From a virus, in the IMG/VR virus record IMGVR_UViG_3300047550_006186: a stretch of 25,444 bases of DNA. One strand, 5' to 3'. Numbering within the stretch: position 1 is the first letter of the stretch; the number at the start of each line of letters is the position of its first letter. Shown here in pieces: positions 40 through 14,925 of the stretch. The notes under the pieces were generated by a model. The model worked only from the letters and a program-made list of their open reading frames with translations, made no database searches and was not told the origin of the DNA. The translations under genes were made by a program, and so were the position numbers.

Positions 40-230
40 AGTGAAATCAATCAATGGATGCAGGCCAACAACATCACCTGGCCCTGGCCAAGGGAAACCC
101 AGGTCCAATTTCTGCTCACCTGGGGTTAGTCTTTCGCTGCGCAAGCCTGTTGGGCTGACCCATTGGGGTCTGATGTCAGCCACTACGATCAAGCAGGAAG
201 CTGTTGGTGTTTAGACCAACAATAGTTCAC
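40..230 (+). mobile_element. Degenerate relic of IS200/IS605-family tnpB 3' end plus right-end (RE) hairpin (omegaRNA-like scaffold, no TnpB ORF)
   Basis: nt 170-230 GATGTCAGCCACTACGATCAAGCAGGAAGC...TAGTTCAC aligns with the reverse complement of the intact tnpB 3' end and RE at 6311-6400. Further upstream blocks (CATTGGGG, GCCTGT, ATCAATCAATGGA) align with gaps. No intact ORF. Confidence 0.6.
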
Positions 231-5912: not shown

Positions 5913-6314
5913 ATGGAAATATCAGATCTAAAAATAATATCAAACATGATCATCAACAGCAAAAAATGGTTTGGTGAGGATTGGCTGTGGGGCTCTCCAC
6001 ATACAGGTGCAATCAAATATCATGTGCCGTTGTGGGATTTGTACTTGACTAGAGAATATGTGAACGTGCCCAAGGGCAAGATCCATATGTTCGGTAGGAA
6101 ATTCTACAATGGCATCACCTATGTTCGATGGGAGTTTGCAACCGATTTAGGTATCGTGAACTACAAAGAGCTTGTTCATTGGACCACAAGTAGAGGATGG
6201 CAGTTATTTGCAGATGAACAAATTCTAGAGGAGATGGAATATGTGGGTGATTTGCAATCGTTTGAAAATGCTATCACTTGGTTCAAACTCATGAACACTC
6301 TTGACATTCCGTGA
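5913..6314 (+). CDS. Hypothetical protein (133 aa); its stop codon is supplied by the IS right end
   Basis: ORF without recognisable motifs. The TGA at 6312-6314 lies inside the terminal GTGAAC of the IS RE. Confidence 0.4.
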   Translation: MEISDLKIISNMIINSKKWFGEDWLWGSPHTGAIKYHVPLWDLYLTREYVNVPKGKIHMFGRKFYNGITYVRWEFATDLGIVNYKELVHWTTSRGWQLFADEQILEEMEYVGDLQSFENAITWFKLMNTLDIP

Positions 6315-6460
6315 ACTACCACGCCCTAAAGGGCTGTGGCTTCCTGCTTCATCGTAGTGGCTGACATCTCACCCCAATGAGTGAGAATATCTGCCACCAC
6401 ATCCACAGGCGCTTGGGGCAGTTCCTGCCCTGCATGATCTAGTGTCCATTGTTGATGTCC
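6295..6460 (-). ncRNA. Predicted TnpB omegaRNA (scaffold = tnpB 3' end plus RE; guide = ~16 nt flanking the RE)
   Basis: By analogy with characterised TnpB systems. Conserved blocks (AGGGCAGGAACTGCCC hairpin, CGCCTGTGGA, CATTGG, RE hairpin) are shared with two tnpB-less copies at 40-230 and 13600-13777. The predicted guide is the reverse complement of ~6295-6310. Confidence 0.45.
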
Positions 6461-7601
6461 CCAATTACAGATGTTCACTGCTGCATTTATGTCCCTGTGC
6501 TCAGTTACACCGCAATGATCACAATGATATTCTCTTTGATGGAGATCCATGTGACTTTTGCGTGCACCACATGCACTACAGGTCTTGCTACTGGGTAGCC
6601 ACTGATTGATCTTGACCAAATGATGGCCTTGGAGTTGACACTTGTAGGCTAATGCACCTGTCAGCATGGCCCAACCCGCATCAGCTATGCACTTGGCTGC
6701 GGGCTTGCTCTTGCGTCTCATCTCTTCAATTTTCAGTGTTTCAACACACACCAGGTCATGTGATTTGGTTATTCTCGCACTGGTCTGATGTATATGGTTT
6801 AATCTTTGGCAGCGAACCAGATCATGGGTTCTTGCCAGTCTTGTTTTTGCTTTTGTTCTATTCCTACTTGCTTTTTGTTTTCTCGATAGTTTGCGTTGTA
6901 GTAATTTGATACGTGATTGTTTTTTGGATAATGGCTTGGGATTTGCCACTAGCTCACCAGTTGATAGTGCCGTGAACTTGCTGTTGACATCCACACCCAC
7001 TGGATTGGCAATTTGATCAACCAATGGTAGTTCCAAGACATCAACCACAAAACTGGCATACCAGCCACGTGGTGTTTGAGTGACAGTCACACCCTTGAAT
7101 AGGGGTAGATGTCTGTGCAATACAATCTTGATATCACCAATCTTGGGTAGATATAACTTGTTGTTGTCAACTCTCACATTTTGTTGATATCTAAAGCTAA
7201 CAGGTGTTGTGTATTTGCTTTTGAACCGGGGAAAGCCAGCGCCTGTTTTCTTCATATTTTTCAGTGCTGTATCCAAGTCGCTTATGCTTTGTTGTAGTAC
7301 CTGACTGTAGGTATCTGATAACCACAGGTTGTTTTTCTTCAAATCAACCAATTGCTTGGCCATATCATTATACCAAACAAACTTTTTGGTCAATTGATAT
7401 TCATCAATGTTCACACGGAGGAAATGATTGTATAGATATCGCACTGCTCCGCCCGCAGAACGCATCTGTTGTTCCTGTTGTGGGGTTGGATAAATTCGAT
7501 ATCTGTATCGCAATTTCATATATCTATTTATATAATTCAGTCAATCGCCGCTATCCATCCAGGGGCTAAAGCGCCCTGGCTTTCCGCGGCGGGAGATAAT
7601 T
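6311..7601 (-). mobile_element. TnpB-only IS200/IS605-family (IS1341-type) insertion sequence, ~1.29 kb
   Basis: tnpB is flanked by an RE hairpin (6311-6353, GTGAACTACCACGCCCTAAAGGGCTGTGGCTTCCTGCTTCATC) and an LE (7546-7601, ...CTATCCATCCAGGGGCTAAAGCGCCCTGG CTTTCCGCGGCGGGAGATAAT). The same end sequences recur as solo copies elsewhere in the window. Confidence 0.85.
6326..7519 (-). CDS. tnpB: RNA-guided endonuclease TnpB (IS605 OrfB family)
   Basis: N-terminus MKLRYRYRIYPTPQQEQ, RuvC-I VGVDVNS, RuvC-II CVETLKIEEM, and a zinc finger CSACG...HCDHCG followed by RDINAAVNI (RuvC-III). The TAG stop lies inside the RE. Confidence 0.93.
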   Translation of the reverse strand: MKLRYRYRIYPTPQQEQQMRSAGGAVRYLYNHFLRVNIDEYQLTKKFVWYNDMAKQLVDLKKNNLWLSDTYSQVLQQSISDLDTALKNMKKTGAGFPRFKSKYTTPVSFRYQQNVRVDNNKLYLPKIGDIKIVLHRHLPLFKGVTVTQTPRGWYASFVVDVLELPLVDQIANPVGVDVNSKFTALSTGELVANPKPLSKKQSRIKLLQRKLSRKQKASRNRTKAKTRLARTHDLVRCQRLNHIHQTSARITKSHDLVCVETLKIEEMRRKSKPAAKCIADAGWAMLTGALAYKCQLQGHHLVKINQWLPSSKTCSACGARKSHMDLHQREYHCDHCGVTEHRDINAAVNICNWGHQQWTLDHAGQELPQAPVDVVADILTHWGEMSATTMKQEATAL

Positions 7602-8731: not shown

Positions 8732-8853
8732 GTAGTAGCTTTTCACCCAGGTGTCTACTGGATTCACTGCTGTTGACGCAAAGACACAACAGGCTTGCAA
8801 GGCGAAGGACTAAATAAACAAACAAACATTTGCAGACAACCTCAAGGAAAGAG

Positions 8854-10514: not shown

Positions 10515-11746
10515 CAGCCAATATCAAACTGGTACACATTTGTAATTTTTGTAACAAAAACAGCACACAAGTCCGAACACTAGTAAGTGGTAATGGAGTG
10601 TTTATTTGTAATGAATGTATTGAATTGTGCAACCAGGCATTGCAAGACCAGCAGACGGAAGCTAGACCTCCCTCTCAAAGTATTGCATGGACTCCCACGC
10701 AAGTGGTAGACTACTTGGACAAGCATGTGATTGGGCAGCAATTGGCCAAAAAAACACTGGGTGTGGCTATCTACAACCATCTCAAGAGGTTGAACTATCC
10801 ACAAGTGGATCAAGTGGTGTTGGACAAAAGTAATATTTTGATGATAGGCAGCAGTGGTGTGGGCAAGTCTCACATGGTGAGCACGTTGGCCAAAATTTTG
10901 GATGTGCCATTTGCTGTTGTGGATGCCACAAGTTTGAGCCAAACAGGATATGTGGGATTGGATCCAGAAGAATGTTTGGTAAGATTGTATCAGGCAGCAG
11001 ACAATAACATGGAATCTGCTGAAAAAGGCATTGTTTTCATTGATGAAATTGACAAAATTAGTCGCAAGAGTGGGGAAAATACCAGTACAACCCGTGATGT
11101 GAGCGGAGAAGGTGTGCAACAAGCATTGCTCAAAATTATAGAGGGTAGTATGGTCAAATTTCAACCCAACAGTGGTAGAAAAAACCCCAATGGCGAGTTT
11201 TTAACTATCAACACTCGCAACATATTGTTCATTTTGGGAGGCGCATTTGAAGGGCTACACAAATTGATCAGCAACCGATTGCAAGACACTTCCAGTCAAG
11301 TGGGATTCAACAGTCAACTGAAATTGGCCAACCAACAACTGGAATGGCAGTTGATACAACAGGTGGAAACTGAGGATCTTATCAATTATGGATTGATTCC
11401 TGAGTTGGTGGGTAGGATTCCTGTGATCTTGCCATTTGAAAATTTAGATTTGCATACACTGACAAGAATTCTTGTAGAGCCACAAAACAGCATTGTAGCT
11501 CAGTTCCAAAAACTGTTTGAACTGGAAGGTATTGATTTGGTTTTTGAATCTGCTGCGTTGACAGCTATTGCTCAACAAGTGCTGCAAAGCCAAACAGGGG
11601 CACGGGGTTTGAGAAGGGTGATTGAACGACTGTTGTTGAACAGTCAGTATCAAATTGTCAGTCTCAAGCAGCAACAGGTCAAACAACTGATAGTCACAGC
11701 CCAATGTGTGACAATGGGCGTAGAACCAAAAAAAGTAATTGACTGA
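10511..11746 (+). CDS. clpX: ATP-dependent Clp protease ATP-binding subunit ClpX (atypical Walker A)
   Basis: N-terminal C4 zinc finger HICNFCNK...[13 protein letters not shown]+ core [61 protein letters not shown]. The Walker A reads GSSGVGKS instead of the near-invariant GPTGSGKT. Confidence 0.9.
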
Positions 11747-12322: not shown

Positions 12323-12370
12323 TTGCCTTTAGGGCCTAAAGGCACCTGGTTTTCTGCGGCGGGAGATAAA
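12323..12370 (+). repeat. Solo IS left-end-like repeat (hairpin GCCTTTAGGGCCTAAAGGC plus CTGGTTTTCTGCGGCGGGAGATAAA)
   Basis: The 3' half matches the IS LE at 7575-7601 and the reverse complement of 14839-14867. A perfect 9-bp-stem hairpin sits directly after the infC stop, and the GGGAG of the repeat sits 12 nt before ATG 12378. Confidence 0.7.
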
Positions 12371-13153: not shown

Positions 13154-13384
13154 ATGGATGACAACTACAACTTTCACAAAAAAGGTTTGACTGTGAGAGT
13201 TATCAATGGCAATTTGGAAGGCGCCCTGAGTAGGCTCAAAAGATTGATGAATCAGGAAGGTGTCAACAAAGAATTGCGCAAGCGTAGGTTTTATGAAAAA
13301 CCCACTACCAAAAGGCGTCGAGAAAAGGCTGAGGCACGTATCCGTTGGCTACGCAAAAAAGCCACCTTGGATCCTTGGGCATAA
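13154..13384 (+). CDS. rpsU: 30S ribosomal protein S21
   Basis: RRFYEKPTTKRRREKAEA matches the S21 hallmark REFYEKPT(T/E)ERKR. 76 aa, basic. Confidence 0.9.
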   Translation: MDDNYNFHKKGLTVRVINGNLEGALSRLKRLMNQEGVNKELRKRRFYEKPTTKRRREKAEARIRWLRKKATLDPWA

Positions 13385-13473
13385 CTTCCCATAGGGAACA
13401 AGGGTCCAGATAACACGAATAGGAGGTGGCCCAAACTTGCCCACGACCCACGTTCCCCAAGGAAGTTTACGTT

Positions 13474-13516
13474 CAGCCGCTATCCATCCAGGGGACAAAG
13501 CGCCCTGGATGGATAG
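13474..13516. repeat. IS left-end-type palindrome (CTATCCATCCAGGGG-ACAAAG-CGCCCTGGATGGATAG)
   Basis: The left arm is identical to the IS LE at 7551-7580. Here it is completed to a 15/16-bp perfect hairpin. Confidence 0.7.
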
Positions 13517-13549
13517 AAACTTGTGATTAAATTATTTTTTTGATATATA

Positions 13550-13578
13550 TTGCATTTGTGTCAACCTCTATGTATAAA
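13550..13578 (+). promoter_or_regulatory. Sigma70-type promoter (TTGCAT, 17-nt spacer, TATAAA) driving the IS-derived RNA
   Basis: TTGCAT at 13550-13555, TATAAA at 13573-13578, with an AT-rich UP-like tract upstream. Confidence 0.5.
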
Positions 13579-13584
13579 CAATAT

Positions 13585-13810
13585 TAGTGATGTAGCAAGA
13601 GCCCCCACGGCTTGGGATATCCCGGTAGAGATACCGCAGAGACTAGGGCAGGAAGTGCCCTGAGTCCGTAAAAAAATATCGCCTGTGGACCGGAACACAC
13701 CAATGAATAAGCCCATTGGCTAAAGGTGAACTGGAATCTAGCAGGAAGCCACAGCCCTAGAGGGCGTGGTACTTCACAAAAGCGGTGATACAAATCACCG
13801 CTTTCTCTCT
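13585..13810 (+). ncRNA. Stand-alone omegaRNA-like (tnpB-3'/RE-derived) RNA with its own promoter and terminator, no TnpB ORF
   Basis: Blocks AGGGCAGGAAGTGCCC, CGCCTGTGGA, CATTGG and the RE GCAGGAAGCCACAGCCCTAGAGGGCGTGGTACTTCAC (13741-13777) are colinear with the intact tnpB 3' region. A hairpin follows at 13779-13804 (AAAGCGGTGAT-ACAA-ATCACCGCTTT) plus TCTCTCT. Confidence 0.45.
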
Positions 13811-13843: not shown

Positions 13844-14884
13844 ATGAAACTACTTGATTTATTTGAAGACAATTCGATAACTACACTCGCTCCAGGAGAG
13901 AAACGAGTCAGGCTGGATCTCAAGATACGCAACTTGCAGGCTATTCAAAAGAAAATGAAGGAGCTCAGAGACAGTCTCTACAAAAGTATTGATCTCAAAT
14001 ATCAATTTACCAAGGATGCTGCTCTACAAGCAGCACTTGAGCAATTGGAAAAACGCATAGTTCTCAAACTGGATTATTTGGAAAAAATGAAATCCAGACC
14101 CACTACTGGTGTCCAAAAGATGTTTGCTATCCTGGACAGTGAATGCAGTGAGTTTTTGAAAGTATTCAAGGAAACACAAAAATTCCTATACAGAGGACTG
14201 AGAGATACTGTGAGTGTATTTGAAGGCAGAAGCAGAGAAGATCGCAGTCCCCAAGACAGTACAAATGAAATAAGTGAAAGATTTGATCAAGCTCTCAAAA
14301 ATGCTGGATTTAGTGCATTGCGCAGCAACAGCATTTTTACCACAACCAGCCTTGGGTTTGCTAGCACGTATGGGCACACGCTTTATTTGATCTTTCCCAA
14401 GAATGGCTTCCATTTCCTTTATACAAATACAAAAGATCTCATACTGAACGATTGGTCACTAATTGCTGATGTAAACGAAATGCGTGAATTCAAAGAAAAA
14501 TTGCGCAATTGGTTGGAAGCCAATGTGGAAGATTGGAAAAACACGGATATAGGCTATGGGGTCGAAAACGACACCTGGCAAACTATGTTCTGGATACTGC
14601 AACGTAATTTTGGGGAACTTGGAAACCCTTACAAGATTCCAGAAGAATTTAATGTGAATATTGAAGATTTTATCACTGATCAAGGGATCGTCAATAGTTT
14701 GGAACCCAAGCAAACTGATTTGGCAGAAGCCATGGTGGATGGTAGAGAAATTTTGATAAATGGAGAATATTGGGCTCTCAAAAGAGAGGATTGGATTGAC
14801 ATAATTGGCCAGCATTATATTGGCGATAATTATAATGAAATTATCTCCCGCCGCGGAAAACCAGGTGCCCGTCAGCTACAATGA
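13844..14884 (+). CDS. Hypothetical protein (346 aa); its C-terminal 15 codons are encoded by an IS-end repeat
   Basis: Long ORF with no recognised domain. The last codons (...ISRRGKPGARQLQ) run through the LE-like repeat at 14839-14867. Confidence 0.5.
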   Translation: MKLLDLFEDNSITTLAPGEKRVRLDLKIRNLQAIQKKMKELRDSLYKSIDLKYQFTKDAALQAALEQLEKRIVLKLDYLEKMKSRPTTGVQKMFAILDSECSEFLKVFKETQKFLYRGLRDTVSVFEGRSREDRSPQDSTNEISERFDQALKNAGFSALRSNSIFTTTSLGFASTYGHTLYLIFPKNGFHFLYTNTKDLILNDWSLIADVNEMREFKEKLRNWLEANVEDWKNTDIGYGVENDTWQTMFWILQRNFGELGNPYKIPEEFNVNIEDFITDQGIVNSLEPKQTDLAEAMVDGREILINGEYWALKREDWIDIIGQHYIGDNYNEIISRRGKPGARQLQ

Positions 14885-14925
14885 TGAAGCAGGAAGCCAC
14901 AGCCCTAGAGGGCGTAGTAGTTCAC
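14839..14925 (+). mobile_element. ~90-bp miniature LE-RE junction element (MITE-like derivative of the TnpB IS)
   Basis: AATTATCTCCCGCCGCGGAAAACCAGG is the reverse complement of the IS LE terminus. It is joined after ~17 nt to GATGAAGCAGGAAGCCACAGCCCTAGAGGGCGTAGTAGTTCAC, which is the RE in tnpB orientation. Confidence 0.7.

What the first reader, a model, noticed from the sequence alone, without database searches (positions are those of the whole stretch)
13474..13810. tnpB-less omegaRNA-like scaffold with its own sigma70 promoter and terminator
Between rpsU and the next gene lies an LE-type palindrome (13474-13516), then a near-consensus promoter (TTGCAT, 17-nt spacer, TATAAA at 13550-13578). 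About 190 nt follow that are colinear with the tnpB 3' end and RE of the intact IS. The shared blocks are the AGGGCAGGAA(C/G)TGCCC hairpin, CGCCTGTGGA, CATTGG and the RE hairpin. The intervening segments differ, which is consistent with stem-preserving drift. It ends in a hairpin-plus-T-rich terminator at 13779-13810. A second, more degraded tnpB-less copy sits at 40-230. Conserved scaffold blocks, a dedicated promoter and no nuclease gene together suggest a trans-acting guide RNA or a domesticated regulatory RNA derived from an omegaRNA. The only protein-coding alternative is a 69-aa antisense ORF with no start context.
Basis: partly seen in the sequence, partly recalled or inferred. Interest (0 to 1): 0.65.

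Follow-up and report, generated by a model that had tools for sequence, protein, structure and literature searches.

The report
Gene-less transposon copy carrying guide RNA
The stretch after the phage's S21 gene is a protein-less derivative of the IS605-type transposon found 6 kb away; it keeps only the transposon ends, a likely promoter and the guide-RNA (omegaRNA) scaffold, which is a kind of element already described, found here in a large aquatic phage.

Summary
The core observation holds. Window 13471-13777 is one copy of a discrete family of ~300-nt tnpB-less IS200/IS605 derivatives. I found six copies: the window plus five on three IMG/VR phage contigs. All share an LE remnant, TTGCAT-N16/17-TATAAA-like hexamers, a ~194-nt scaffold and the RE. 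Homology stops exactly at the RE end (TTCAC|), the flanks are unrelated, and every copy sits in an intergenic gap.

The scaffold maps onto the solved ISDra2 omegaRNA: stem 1 with a GGAA loop, stem 2 (CCUG/CAGG), a central hairpin and the RE hairpin. A pseudoknot joins the stem-1 loop to nucleotides -6..-3. That pseudoknot shows a compensatory change: GAAC/GUUC in every tnpB-linked copy with the usual loop, GAAG/CUUC in four of six tnpB-less copies. An intact TnpB with its D-E-D catalytic residues lies at 6326-7519.

Most likely this is a standalone omegaRNA element (PATE-like) that uses TnpB in trans against the unoccupied site, TTTAC + AAAAGCGGTGATACAA.

- The terminator hairpin is flanking DNA, not part of the element.
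- The promoter alone is not better than chance.
- The "second copy" at 40-230 is mostly the 3' end of a gene; only ~145-230 is IS-derived.
- Nothing indicates a domesticated regulatory RNA.

Standalone omegaRNAs and omegaRNA-bearing PATEs are already in the literature, so this is a new member of a known kind.

The parts
13466..13470 (+). TTTAC, the transposon-adjacent motif (TAM) immediately 5' of the left end
   Evidence: LE 5' junctions of 17 copies read TTAY followed by (C/G/A)TCCCGCCGCGGAAAG. The window reads TTTAC|GTTCAGCCGC.
13471..13516 (+). Left end (LE) variant: GTTCAGCCGC followed by the LE hairpin extended to a perfect 14-bp-arm palindrome. The GGAAAG segment at the 5' foot of the hairpin is replaced by TATCCAT.
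   Evidence: The hairpin loop occurs in both orientations in the same locus from other samples.
13517..13549 (+). AT-rich spacer derived from the LE interior (the TTTTTGA(A)T motif is shared with the IS). This is the least conserved part of the element.
   Evidence: Mean pairwise identity 0.66, against 0.91 for the scaffold.
13550..13578 (+). Promoter-like hexamers TTGCAT-17-TATAAA
   Evidence: The -35 hexamer is invariant in six of six copies. The -10 is TATAAA in four copies, TATAAT in L017 and TACTAA in L001, and it varies among alleles of this same locus. The consensus scan did not call it.
13584..13777 (+). omegaRNA-type scaffold ending at the right-end boundary TTCAC|. Sub-parts: stem 1 13645-13650/13656-13661 with loop GGAAG 13651-13655; stem 2 CCTG 13682-13685 / CAGG 13742-13745; central hairpin ~13690-13735; RE hairpin 13749-13757/13762-13769; pseudoknot partner CTTC 13772-13775.
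   Evidence: Model R1 scores 225 bits here and 221-237 bits on the five other copies. Fold z-score -3.1. Structure counts. Mapping to the ISDra2 omegaRNA follows PMC10097598.
13778..13793 (+). Guide-equivalent flank AAAAGCGGTGATACAA. This is not part of the element.
   Evidence: Family homology ends at 13777 and the flanks are 0.28 identical. There is no other match in the window.
13779..13804 (+). Flanking hairpin AAAGCGGTGAT-ACAA-ATCACCGCTTT, probably the resident terminator downstream of rpsU. It overlaps the guide-equivalent.
   Evidence: Read directly from the sequence. The terminator scan did not call it. It is absent after the other copies.
6311..7595 (-). Intact IS1341-type element (tnpB only; tnpB 6326-7519), preceded by TAM TTAT at 7596-7599. 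It is the candidate source of TnpB in trans.
   Evidence: Pfam HTH_OrfB_IS605, OrfB_IS605 and Cas12f1-like_TNB. E 1.5e-48 to ISDra2 TnpB. GVDVN, VETL and RDINAA align with the catalytic motifs of the top PDB hit (9yyg, an AI-designed nuclease, E 1.9e-55).

Best explanation
Window 13471-13777 is a non-autonomous IS200/IS605-family element: a PATE-like, 'standalone omegaRNA' element. It has lost tnpB and keeps the LE, a sigma70-like promoter, a complete omegaRNA scaffold and the RE.

Inferred mechanism:
1. The promoter starts transcription near 13585.
2. The transcript runs through the scaffold into the flank, so its 3' portion (AAAAGCGGTGATACAA...) serves as the guide.
3. TnpB made by full-length IS copies in the same phage genome (6326-7519) binds this RNA.
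4. The complex cuts DNA that carries the unoccupied site, TTTAC followed by the guide sequence.
5. Homologous repair from an occupied copy then restores or spreads the element. The cut DNA could be a sister genome after excision, or a co-infecting relative that lacks the insertion.

Transposition to new sites needs a Y1 TnpA supplied in trans; none is in the window. This particular copy has probably lost the ability to be excised, because the GGAAAG segment 5' of the LE hairpin is replaced.

Shown: family membership, boundaries, multi-site distribution, retention of the omegaRNA architecture including a compensated pseudoknot, and an intact TnpB nearby.
Inferred: transcription, TnpB binding, cleavage, homing.
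For: - The six copies share one architecture and so one origin. Scaffold identity is 0.91 and homology ends exactly at TTCAC| with unrelated flanks.
- Only IS-derived DNA is shared between the window and the contigs that carry the other copies.
- All copies lie in intergenic gaps, co-oriented with the neighbouring genes.
- The L002 copy has a full LE preceded by TTAC, and the window copy is preceded by TTTAC.
- The architecture maps onto the solved ISDra2 omegaRNA. Over 14 sequences, 94% of cells are paired, against 37-47% when the partners are slid, and 9 pairs change on both sides.
- The pseudoknot pair is C-G in 7 tnpB-linked sequences of that alignment and G-C in 4 tnpB-less copies.
- A second lineage (L003) independently shows a promoter (TTGACT-17-TATGAT) placed directly upstream of a tnpB-less scaffold, with one compensatory change in stem 1.
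- An in-frame deletion derivative (L006 10434-10808) keeps the same ~190-nt 3' segment.
- In the six copies the LE is rearranged, truncated or cut short at least four times, while the 228-nt promoter-scaffold-RE unit has no indel longer than 2 nt.
- TnpB retains its D-E-D residues and zinc finger.
- Published work reports that standalone omegaRNAs function in trans with compatible effectors (PMC10691335) and that PATEs often encode omegaRNAs (PMC10055086).
Against: - There are no expression data.
- The promoter match is 9 of 12 without the -7 T, was not called by the scan, and its -10 differs among alleles of the same locus.
- Within the family there are no double compensatory changes, and about 8 of 60 predicted pairs are broken in some copy. 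The high conservation could therefore reflect recent spread.
- Two of six copies (L001, L002) have a G.G mismatch at the pseudoknot pair.
- The central hairpin and the 5' 60 nt differ from the co-resident TnpB's own omegaRNA, so compatibility with that TnpB is unproven.
- No empty-site allele was found, and no tnpA was seen.
- In the window copy the guide is sequestered in the flanking hairpin.
Confidence: 0.6

Rival explanations
1. It is an inert miniature transposon relic: a MITE/PATE that spread recently through TnpA acting in trans. Its scaffold and 'promoter' are conserved only because the copies are young. No functional RNA is made.
For: - The copies differ by only 6-14%, similar to the 12-13% between full IS copies.
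- There are no double compensatory changes within the family.
- The promoter is no better than chance by itself, and its -10 varies among alleles.
- The same genome holds gene-less IS debris with no scaffold at all, such as the mini LE-RE element 14845-14925 and solo ends at 12324-12369 and 18902-18943.
Against: - Decay is uneven. The LE and the spacer are rearranged or only 0.66 identical, while the promoter-scaffold-RE unit has no sizeable indel in six of six copies.
- The scaffold differs extensively from tnpB-linked 3' ends, yet keeps every helix of the ISDra2-type architecture and a compensated pseudoknot pair.
- Three independent derivatives retain just the omegaRNA segment: this family, L003 and L006.
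Confidence: 0.24
2. It is a mobile outward-reading promoter or 5' leader. The element is tolerated or selected because its promoter drives the gene immediately downstream, and the structured RNA is only a leader.
For: - In all six copies the element is co-oriented with the next gene. That gene starts 13-75 nt after the RE, with no terminator in five of the six.
- The -35 hexamer is invariant.
Against: - In the window copy a hairpin with a short T-tract separates the element from the next gene.
- A leader role does not explain retention of the pseudoknot, stem 1 and stem 2 features specific to omegaRNAs.
- Co-orientation is expected anyway in a phage with co-directional genes and strand-specific IS605 insertion. 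That expectation comes from established knowledge, not a test here.
Confidence: 0.12
3. It encodes the 69-aa antisense protein (13584-13793, minus strand).
For: An open frame of 69 codons exists.
Against: - No Pfam hit.
- TTG start.
- The frame is broken by 1-nt indels or stops in L001, L002, L012 and L017.
Confidence: 0.01

Closest known systems
Standalone omegaRNAs of OMEGA systems (Altae-Tran et al. 2021, as summarised in PMC10691335)
   Same: A mobilised omegaRNA locus with no adjacent effector or transposase, in a genome that also holds effector-containing loci. The guide is set by the flank just outside the transposon end. Such RNAs are reported to work in trans with compatible effectors.
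   Different: - This one is a TnpB-type (ISDra2-like) scaffold in a T4-like aquatic phage.
- The tnpB body has been replaced by ~60 nt holding a sigma70-like promoter.
- Its function was not tested here.
PATEs (palindrome-associated transposable elements) of IS200/IS605, e.g. in Geobacillus stearothermophilus (Meers et al. 2023, PMC10055086)
   Same: A gene-less element bounded by an LE and RE related to those of resident IS605-family copies. Meers et al. state that PATEs 'often encode omegaRNAs' that need TnpB in trans.
   Different: - A dedicated promoter lies directly upstream of the scaffold.
- The 5' third of the scaffold has been remodelled into three small hairpins.
- The LE is variably damaged, so several copies are probably immobile.
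ISDra2 TnpB omegaRNA (cryo-EM, PMC10097598)
   Same: - A stem-1 loop GGAA(N) pairs with -6..-3 (GUUC) next to the guide.
- Stem 2 is formed by about -36..-33.
- Stem 4 is the RE hairpin, with a UUUA loop at -20..-17 in the IS copies.
- The 5' extension is dispensable in ISDra2.
   Different: - The scaffold is longer (about 135 nt from stem 1 to the end, against 116).
- The TAM is TTAC-type rather than TTGAT.
- The window copy has loop UAGA instead of UUUA.
- It is not embedded in a tnpB ORF.
TldR / nuclease-dead TnpB-derived RNA-guided regulators (PMC10705468)
   Same: A guide RNA derived from an omegaRNA and used outside a complete transposon.
   Different: - No nuclease-dead TnpB is present. 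The only TnpB here has intact D-E-D residues and sits in a normal IS.
- The guide matches only its own flank.

Membership tests
Non-autonomous IS200/IS605 element (PATE / standalone omegaRNA locus) | LE and RE with subterminal hairpins related to those of a resident IS605-family element | tested here: met
   13476-13508 is 94% identical to 7547-7579, and 13740-13777 is 92% identical to 6311-6348. LE junctions are aligned.
Non-autonomous IS200/IS605 element (PATE / standalone omegaRNA locus) | No protein-coding gene inside | tested here: met
   Only a 69-aa antisense ORF is present. It has no Pfam hit and is frameshifted in other copies.
Non-autonomous IS200/IS605 element (PATE / standalone omegaRNA locus) | Several copies at different sites with sharp ends and a TAM 5' of the LE | tested here: met
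   Six copies. Homology ends at TTCAC| and the flanks are 0.24-0.28 identical. TAM is TTAC or TTTAC.
Non-autonomous IS200/IS605 element (PATE / standalone omegaRNA locus) | Unoccupied (empty) site, or an excision product | tested here: inconclusive
   The exact-match scan for the flank found nothing. No homologous empty site was found among the fetched loci. All 8 rpsU contigs that were read, out of 15 carrying this S21, carry the element.
Non-autonomous IS200/IS605 element (PATE / standalone omegaRNA locus) | A Y1 TnpA available in trans | not tested
   No TnpA domain was seen among the ten window ORFs scanned. The host genome is unknown, and the closest TnpB in the genome collection is only 36% identical.
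TnpB omegaRNA (ISDra2 type) | Scaffold abuts the RE boundary, so that the guide is the adjacent flank | tested here: met
   The scaffold ends at 13777, which is the RE end.
TnpB omegaRNA (ISDra2 type) | Stem 1 whose loop forms a pseudoknot with nucleotides -6..-3 | tested here: met
   Loop GGAAG 13651-13655 pairs with CUUC 13772-13775. The pair is C-G in 7 tnpB-linked sequences, G-C in 4 tnpB-less copies and mismatched in 2. This is a prediction by analogy with PMC10097598.
TnpB omegaRNA (ISDra2 type) | Stem 2, central stem 3 and stem 4 (RE hairpin) | tested here: met
   CCUG/CAGG is essentially invariant. Seven of nine RE hairpin pairs change on both sides. A central hairpin is present but with a different sequence.
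TnpB omegaRNA (ISDra2 type) | Transcribed and bound by a TnpB, and supports TAM-dependent cleavage | not testable with these tools
   No transcriptome or biochemistry is available.
TnpB omegaRNA (ISDra2 type) | Match to a curated RNA family | tested here: not met
   No Rfam 15 family reaches its gathering score. The best sub-threshold hits are unrelated.
Sigma70-type promoter | TTGACA/TATAAT-like hexamers with 16-18 nt spacing and the invariant A2/T6 in the -10 | tested here: inconclusive
   TTGCAT-17-TATAAA scores 9 of 12 with no T6 and was not called. Such matches occur at chance frequency. The -35 is invariant in six copies and L017 has TATAAT, but the -10 varies among alleles.
Intrinsic terminator belonging to the element | GC-rich hairpin plus a T-run inside the conserved unit | tested here: not met
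   The hairpin lies in the flank. It was not called by the scan, and there is no counterpart after the other copies.
TldR-like domesticated guide system | Nuclease-dead TnpB homologue partnered with a guide that targets a promoter | tested here: not met
   TnpB has its D, E and D residues. The guide matches only its own flank.

The most novel reading that the evidence does not exclude
In this T4-like aquatic phage lineage, promoter-driven standalone omegaRNAs have become fixed, no-longer-excisable guide genes. The phage's own TnpB would use them to cut co-infecting relatives that lack the insertion. That would be RNA-guided 'non-restorative homing' or marker exclusion, analogous to the free-standing homing endonucleases of T-even phages. 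It would also be a natural intermediate between a transposon-bound guide and a dedicated guide gene.
Probability: 0.15. Interest if true: 0.7.

Novelty: new member of a known kind. Interest (0 to 1): 0.38.

Why it matters
If the RNA is made and loaded into TnpB, this would be a clear natural case in which the guide-RNA module of a TnpB transposon has separated from the nuclease gene, gained its own promoter and spread on its own within phage genomes. That bears on two questions. One is how transposon guides became independent guide genes, the route proposed for tracrRNA and CRISPR origins. The other is whether phages use TnpB for homing between co-infecting genomes. The compact ~135-nt core, with a naturally varied pseudoknot, also gives a small comparative data set for engineering omegaRNAs. 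On present evidence, though, it is an expected variant of something already described.

Tried and rejected
- Rfam at gathering and E-value thresholds found nothing relevant.
- The metagenome scan with a 20-mer from the scaffold gave two chance hits inside an unrelated gene.
- Two of the hits in the viral scan with the 5' anchor were also chance (L015, L016).
- A fourth anchor pattern found no further copies.
- The genome-contig scan with TnpB found nothing closer than 36% identity, so the host and any tnpA remain unknown.
- Searches for an empty site failed: an exact scan for the flank, BLAST and tblastx of all copy flanks against all loci, and a relatives search with the downstream 346-aa protein.
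- DNA search against GenBank phages gave no match.
- Global identity to the IS 3' end against shuffles was not discriminating.
- An alternative pseudoknot between CCUGUGG and the RE hairpin arm was rejected, because L032/L033 (CCCGUGG with the type-2 hairpin) do not support it.
- The MFE 'closing helix' between the 5' UAGUGAUG and the 3' end was not adopted. It competes with the pseudoknot, and the 5' region is dispensable in ISDra2.
- Protein coding on either strand was rejected.
- Extending the genome by about 9 kb to the right and 1.2 kb to the left revealed no further family copy.

Full report
**Context**

The window is part of a large phage genome. It encodes ribosomal protein S21 (13154-13384) and an IF3-like protein, and the neighbouring genes called on matching contigs include ClpX-like, ClpS, HSP20, dUTPase and rIIB homologues. 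A 699-aa protein is ~40% identical to proteins of Methylophilales phage Melnitz and 32% to one of Pelagibacter phage HTVC008M. The window matches a 58-kb JGI contig from sample 3300042987.

An intact IS1341-type element lies on the minus strand at 6311-7595, preceded by TTAT. Its TnpB (6326-7519) has the three Pfam domains of the family and hits ISDra2 TnpB at E 1.5e-48. Its GVDVN, VETL and RDINAA motifs align with the catalytic D, E and D of the top PDB hit, an AI-designed nuclease.

**The observation**

Three points need qualifying.

- The hexamers TTGCAT-17-TATAAA were not called by the consensus scan, because the -10 lacks the T at position 6. Matches of that quality are no more frequent in this window than in shuffles.
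- The hairpin at 13779-13804 was not called as a terminator.
- Overall identity of the 194 nt to the tnpB 3' end is barely above shuffled controls.

The homology therefore rests on ordered blocks: AGGGCAGGAA(G/C)TGCCC, CGCCTGTGGA, and the 38-nt RE at 92%. It also rests on a covariance-model hit of 34 bits (E 2e-7) on 6311-6481(-).

The 'second copy at 40-230' is mostly not one. Positions 1-126 are the open 3' end of a 247-aa gene. Only ~145-230 is an RE fragment of a sister IS type.

**What it is**

Pattern scans of IMG/VR with four different anchors recovered five more copies of the same tnpB-less unit on three phage contigs: L001 133-326, L002 10900-11095(-), L011 1911-2105(-), L012 9625-9819 and L017 4476-4669(-).

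- All six share the same junction architecture: LE remnant, AT-rich spacer, TTGCAT-N16/17-TATAAA-like hexamers, a ~194-nt scaffold and the RE. They therefore descend from one ancestor that then spread.
- Homology stops exactly at ...GTA(C/G)TTCAC|. The 3' flanks are 0.28 identical, the scaffold 0.91, the promoter 0.85 and the LE-to-promoter spacer 0.66.
- Apart from IS-derived DNA, the window shares no nucleotide similarity with the stretches fetched from those contigs.
- The L002 copy has a complete LE preceded by TTAC. Seventeen LE junctions give TTAY|(C/G/A)TCCCGCCGCGGAAAG.
- In the window the junction is TTTAC|GTTCAGCCGC at 13466-13480, so the element spans 13471-13777.
- A covariance model of the six copies scores 221-237 bits on members and only 10-36 bits on tnpB-linked 3' ends. 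There are no intermediates, so this is a discrete family.
- All copies lie in intergenic gaps, co-oriented with both neighbours. The next gene starts 13-75 nt after the RE.
- The antisense ORF is frameshifted in four copies.

**RNA architecture**

Both the candidate and the IS 3' end fold better than shuffles, with z-scores of -3.1 and -3.7. I compared them with the cryo-EM description of the ISDra2 omegaRNA (PMC10097598). That RNA has stem 1 with a loop that pairs with -6..-2 next to the guide (the pseudoknot), stem 2 formed by -35..-32, a dispensable stem 3b, and a stem 4 with a UUUA loop at -20..-17.

The same plan is present here:

| ISDra2 feature | Here |
|---|---|
| Stem 1 and its loop | Hairpin GGGCA-GGAAC-UGCCC |
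| Stem 2 | CCUG/CAGG |
| Stem 3 | Central long hairpin |
| Stem 4 | RE hairpin, with UUUA at exactly -20..-17 in the IS copies |
| Pseudoknot | Loop GAAC complementary to GUUC at -6..-3 |

On a 14-sequence alignment, 94% of cells pair, against 37-47% when the partners are slid, and 9 of 23 pairs change on both sides. Seven of those nine are in the RE hairpin, which is also needed as DNA by TnpA, so they do not discriminate between an RNA role and a DNA role.

The informative case is the pseudoknot. Every tnpB-linked copy has loop GGAAC (GGGAC in L030) together with G at -6. The tnpB-less family has loop GGAAG, with C at -6 in four copies (window, L011, L012, L017) and G at -6, a mismatch, in two (L001, L002). 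This is one covarying pair only, but it sits at the position predicted from a solved structure, and it has no obvious role in transposition.

Within the family there are no double compensatory changes, and about eight predicted pairs are broken somewhere. The central hairpin and the 5' 60 nt are not covarying versions of the IS sequence. They are different hairpins: three short ones, one with GNRA loops GAGA/GCAA.

**Independent parallels**

- L003 is a tnpB-less derivative of a different TnpB lineage (L005, L008, L010). It sits in GC-rich DNA and has TTGACT-17-TATGAT directly upstream of the scaffold, plus one compensatory change in stem 1.
- L006 10434-10808 is an in-frame deletion that keeps the first 46 and last 53 codons, which again preserves the ~190-nt 3' segment.

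By contrast, the LE of the family is damaged repeatedly:

- It is replaced by a palindrome of downstream sequence in L001.
- It carries a 5-nt deletion in L017.
- It is truncated by another IS fragment in L012.
- In the window, the GGAAAG 5' of the hairpin is replaced by TATCCAT, which extends the hairpin to a perfect palindrome.

By analogy with IS608, where the tetranucleotide at the 5' foot of the hairpin recognises the TTAC cleavage site (established knowledge, not tested here), the window copy is probably no longer excisable.

The same locus was recovered from many samples, always occupied. The contigs break inside the repeat, the hairpin loop appears in either orientation, and the -10 region is variable.

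**Mechanism**

The best-supported reading (about 0.6) is a standalone omegaRNA element. Its RNA would be loaded by TnpB from full-length IS copies and would direct cleavage of the unoccupied site (TTTAC + AAAAGCGGTGATACAA), favouring retention or homing.

The hairpin after 13777 is flanking DNA, most simply the resident terminator downstream of rpsU into which the element inserted. It is not part of the element, and the other copies read straight into the next gene.

Rivals:

- An inert, recently spread MITE (about 0.24).
- A mobile outward promoter or leader (about 0.12).
- A small antisense protein (about 0.01).

**Comparison with what is known**

Standalone omegaRNAs that are mobilised, lack an effector and work in trans have been reported (summarised in PMC10691335). 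Meers et al. state that PATEs often encode omegaRNAs that need TnpB in trans (PMC10055086). Homing into co-infecting phages is listed as a conceptual category in a 2026 review (PMC13565253). This locus is therefore a new member of a known kind. Its distinguishing details are the dedicated promoter that replaces tnpB, the remodelled 5' third, the phage setting and the probable immobilisation of some copies.

Noticed in passing
window 14845-14925 (TAM TTAT at 14841-14844): An 81-nt mini LE-RE element (26 nt of LE joined to 55 nt of RE, with no omegaRNA core) is inserted in the 3' end of ORF 13844-14884. It supplies that ORF's last 14 codons (ISRRGKPGARQLQ plus stop). The same arrangement is present in an independent assembly (L043/L046).
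   Followed up: partly
window 18902-18943; 12324-12344; 13479-13516; L001 ~52-82: IS end hairpins have repeatedly been turned into long perfect palindromes. There is an RE 3' half plus its reverse complement at 18902-18943, an LE hairpin at 12324-12344 directly after the IF3-like gene, and the extended LE of the candidate. At the rpsU locus the loop is found in both orientations in different samples, which suggests flip-flop or template-switch events at these hairpins.
   Followed up: partly
L003 10650-10960: A second, unrelated tnpB-less lineage in a GC-rich viral contig has a strong TTGACT-17-TATGAT promoter in front of a ~125-nt scaffold. Its guide-side flank is a 31-nt tandem repeat, two copies at 96% (10898-10960).
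   Followed up: partly
L006 10434-10808: An in-frame internal deletion derivative of the IS (codons 1-46 fused to 345-397) lies tail-to-tail, 54 nt from a full IS copy. It keeps the native 5' region and the whole omegaRNA segment.
   Followed up: no
L011 1731-1914 (minus strand), immediately 3' of the RE: The first ~90 nt after the RE, including the guide-equivalent and the start of the downstream gene, are tandemly duplicated at 96% identity.
   Followed up: no
L012 73-272: Another short gene-less element has the type-2 RE hairpin (CTGTTGG...CCAACAG). An upstream stretch, TTTCATTTGTGTGAAATCTATATACC, resembles the family's TTGCATTTGTGTTAACCTCTATGTATAAA promoter region. It has no stem-1 hairpin.
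   Followed up: no
window 126-152 vs 8787-8813; L009 8802-8837: A 27-36-nt repeat (TTAGTC(T/C)TTCGC...GCAAGCCTGTTG) occurs just after gene ends in inverted orientation, and also on another phage contig at 94% identity. It may be another small mobile or terminator-like element.
   Followed up: no
L035-L043, L045 (contig ends): Independent assemblies from many samples break at the candidate element (around window 13500-13620 and 13741) or at the RE edge of the full IS (around window 6311). This shows the IS-derived sequences are multi-copy repeats in those populations. L037 shows a snap-back join at the LE palindrome, probably an assembly artefact.
   Followed up: partly
window 5913-6314 (+): A 133-aa ORF with no Pfam hit ends exactly at the RE boundary of the intact IS. 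It is called as 122 aa in L044/L045, so its stop or C-terminus may be set by the insertion.
   Followed up: no
window 19452-25302 and L046: This phage region encodes CsgF/CsgG-like, FecR-like, PA14 and CHASE2-guanylate cyclase proteins with internal GGCAA(C/T)AGCAACAGTGTGAC-type repeats (20554-20881, 22736-23111). This is an unusual cargo for a myophage.
   Followed up: no
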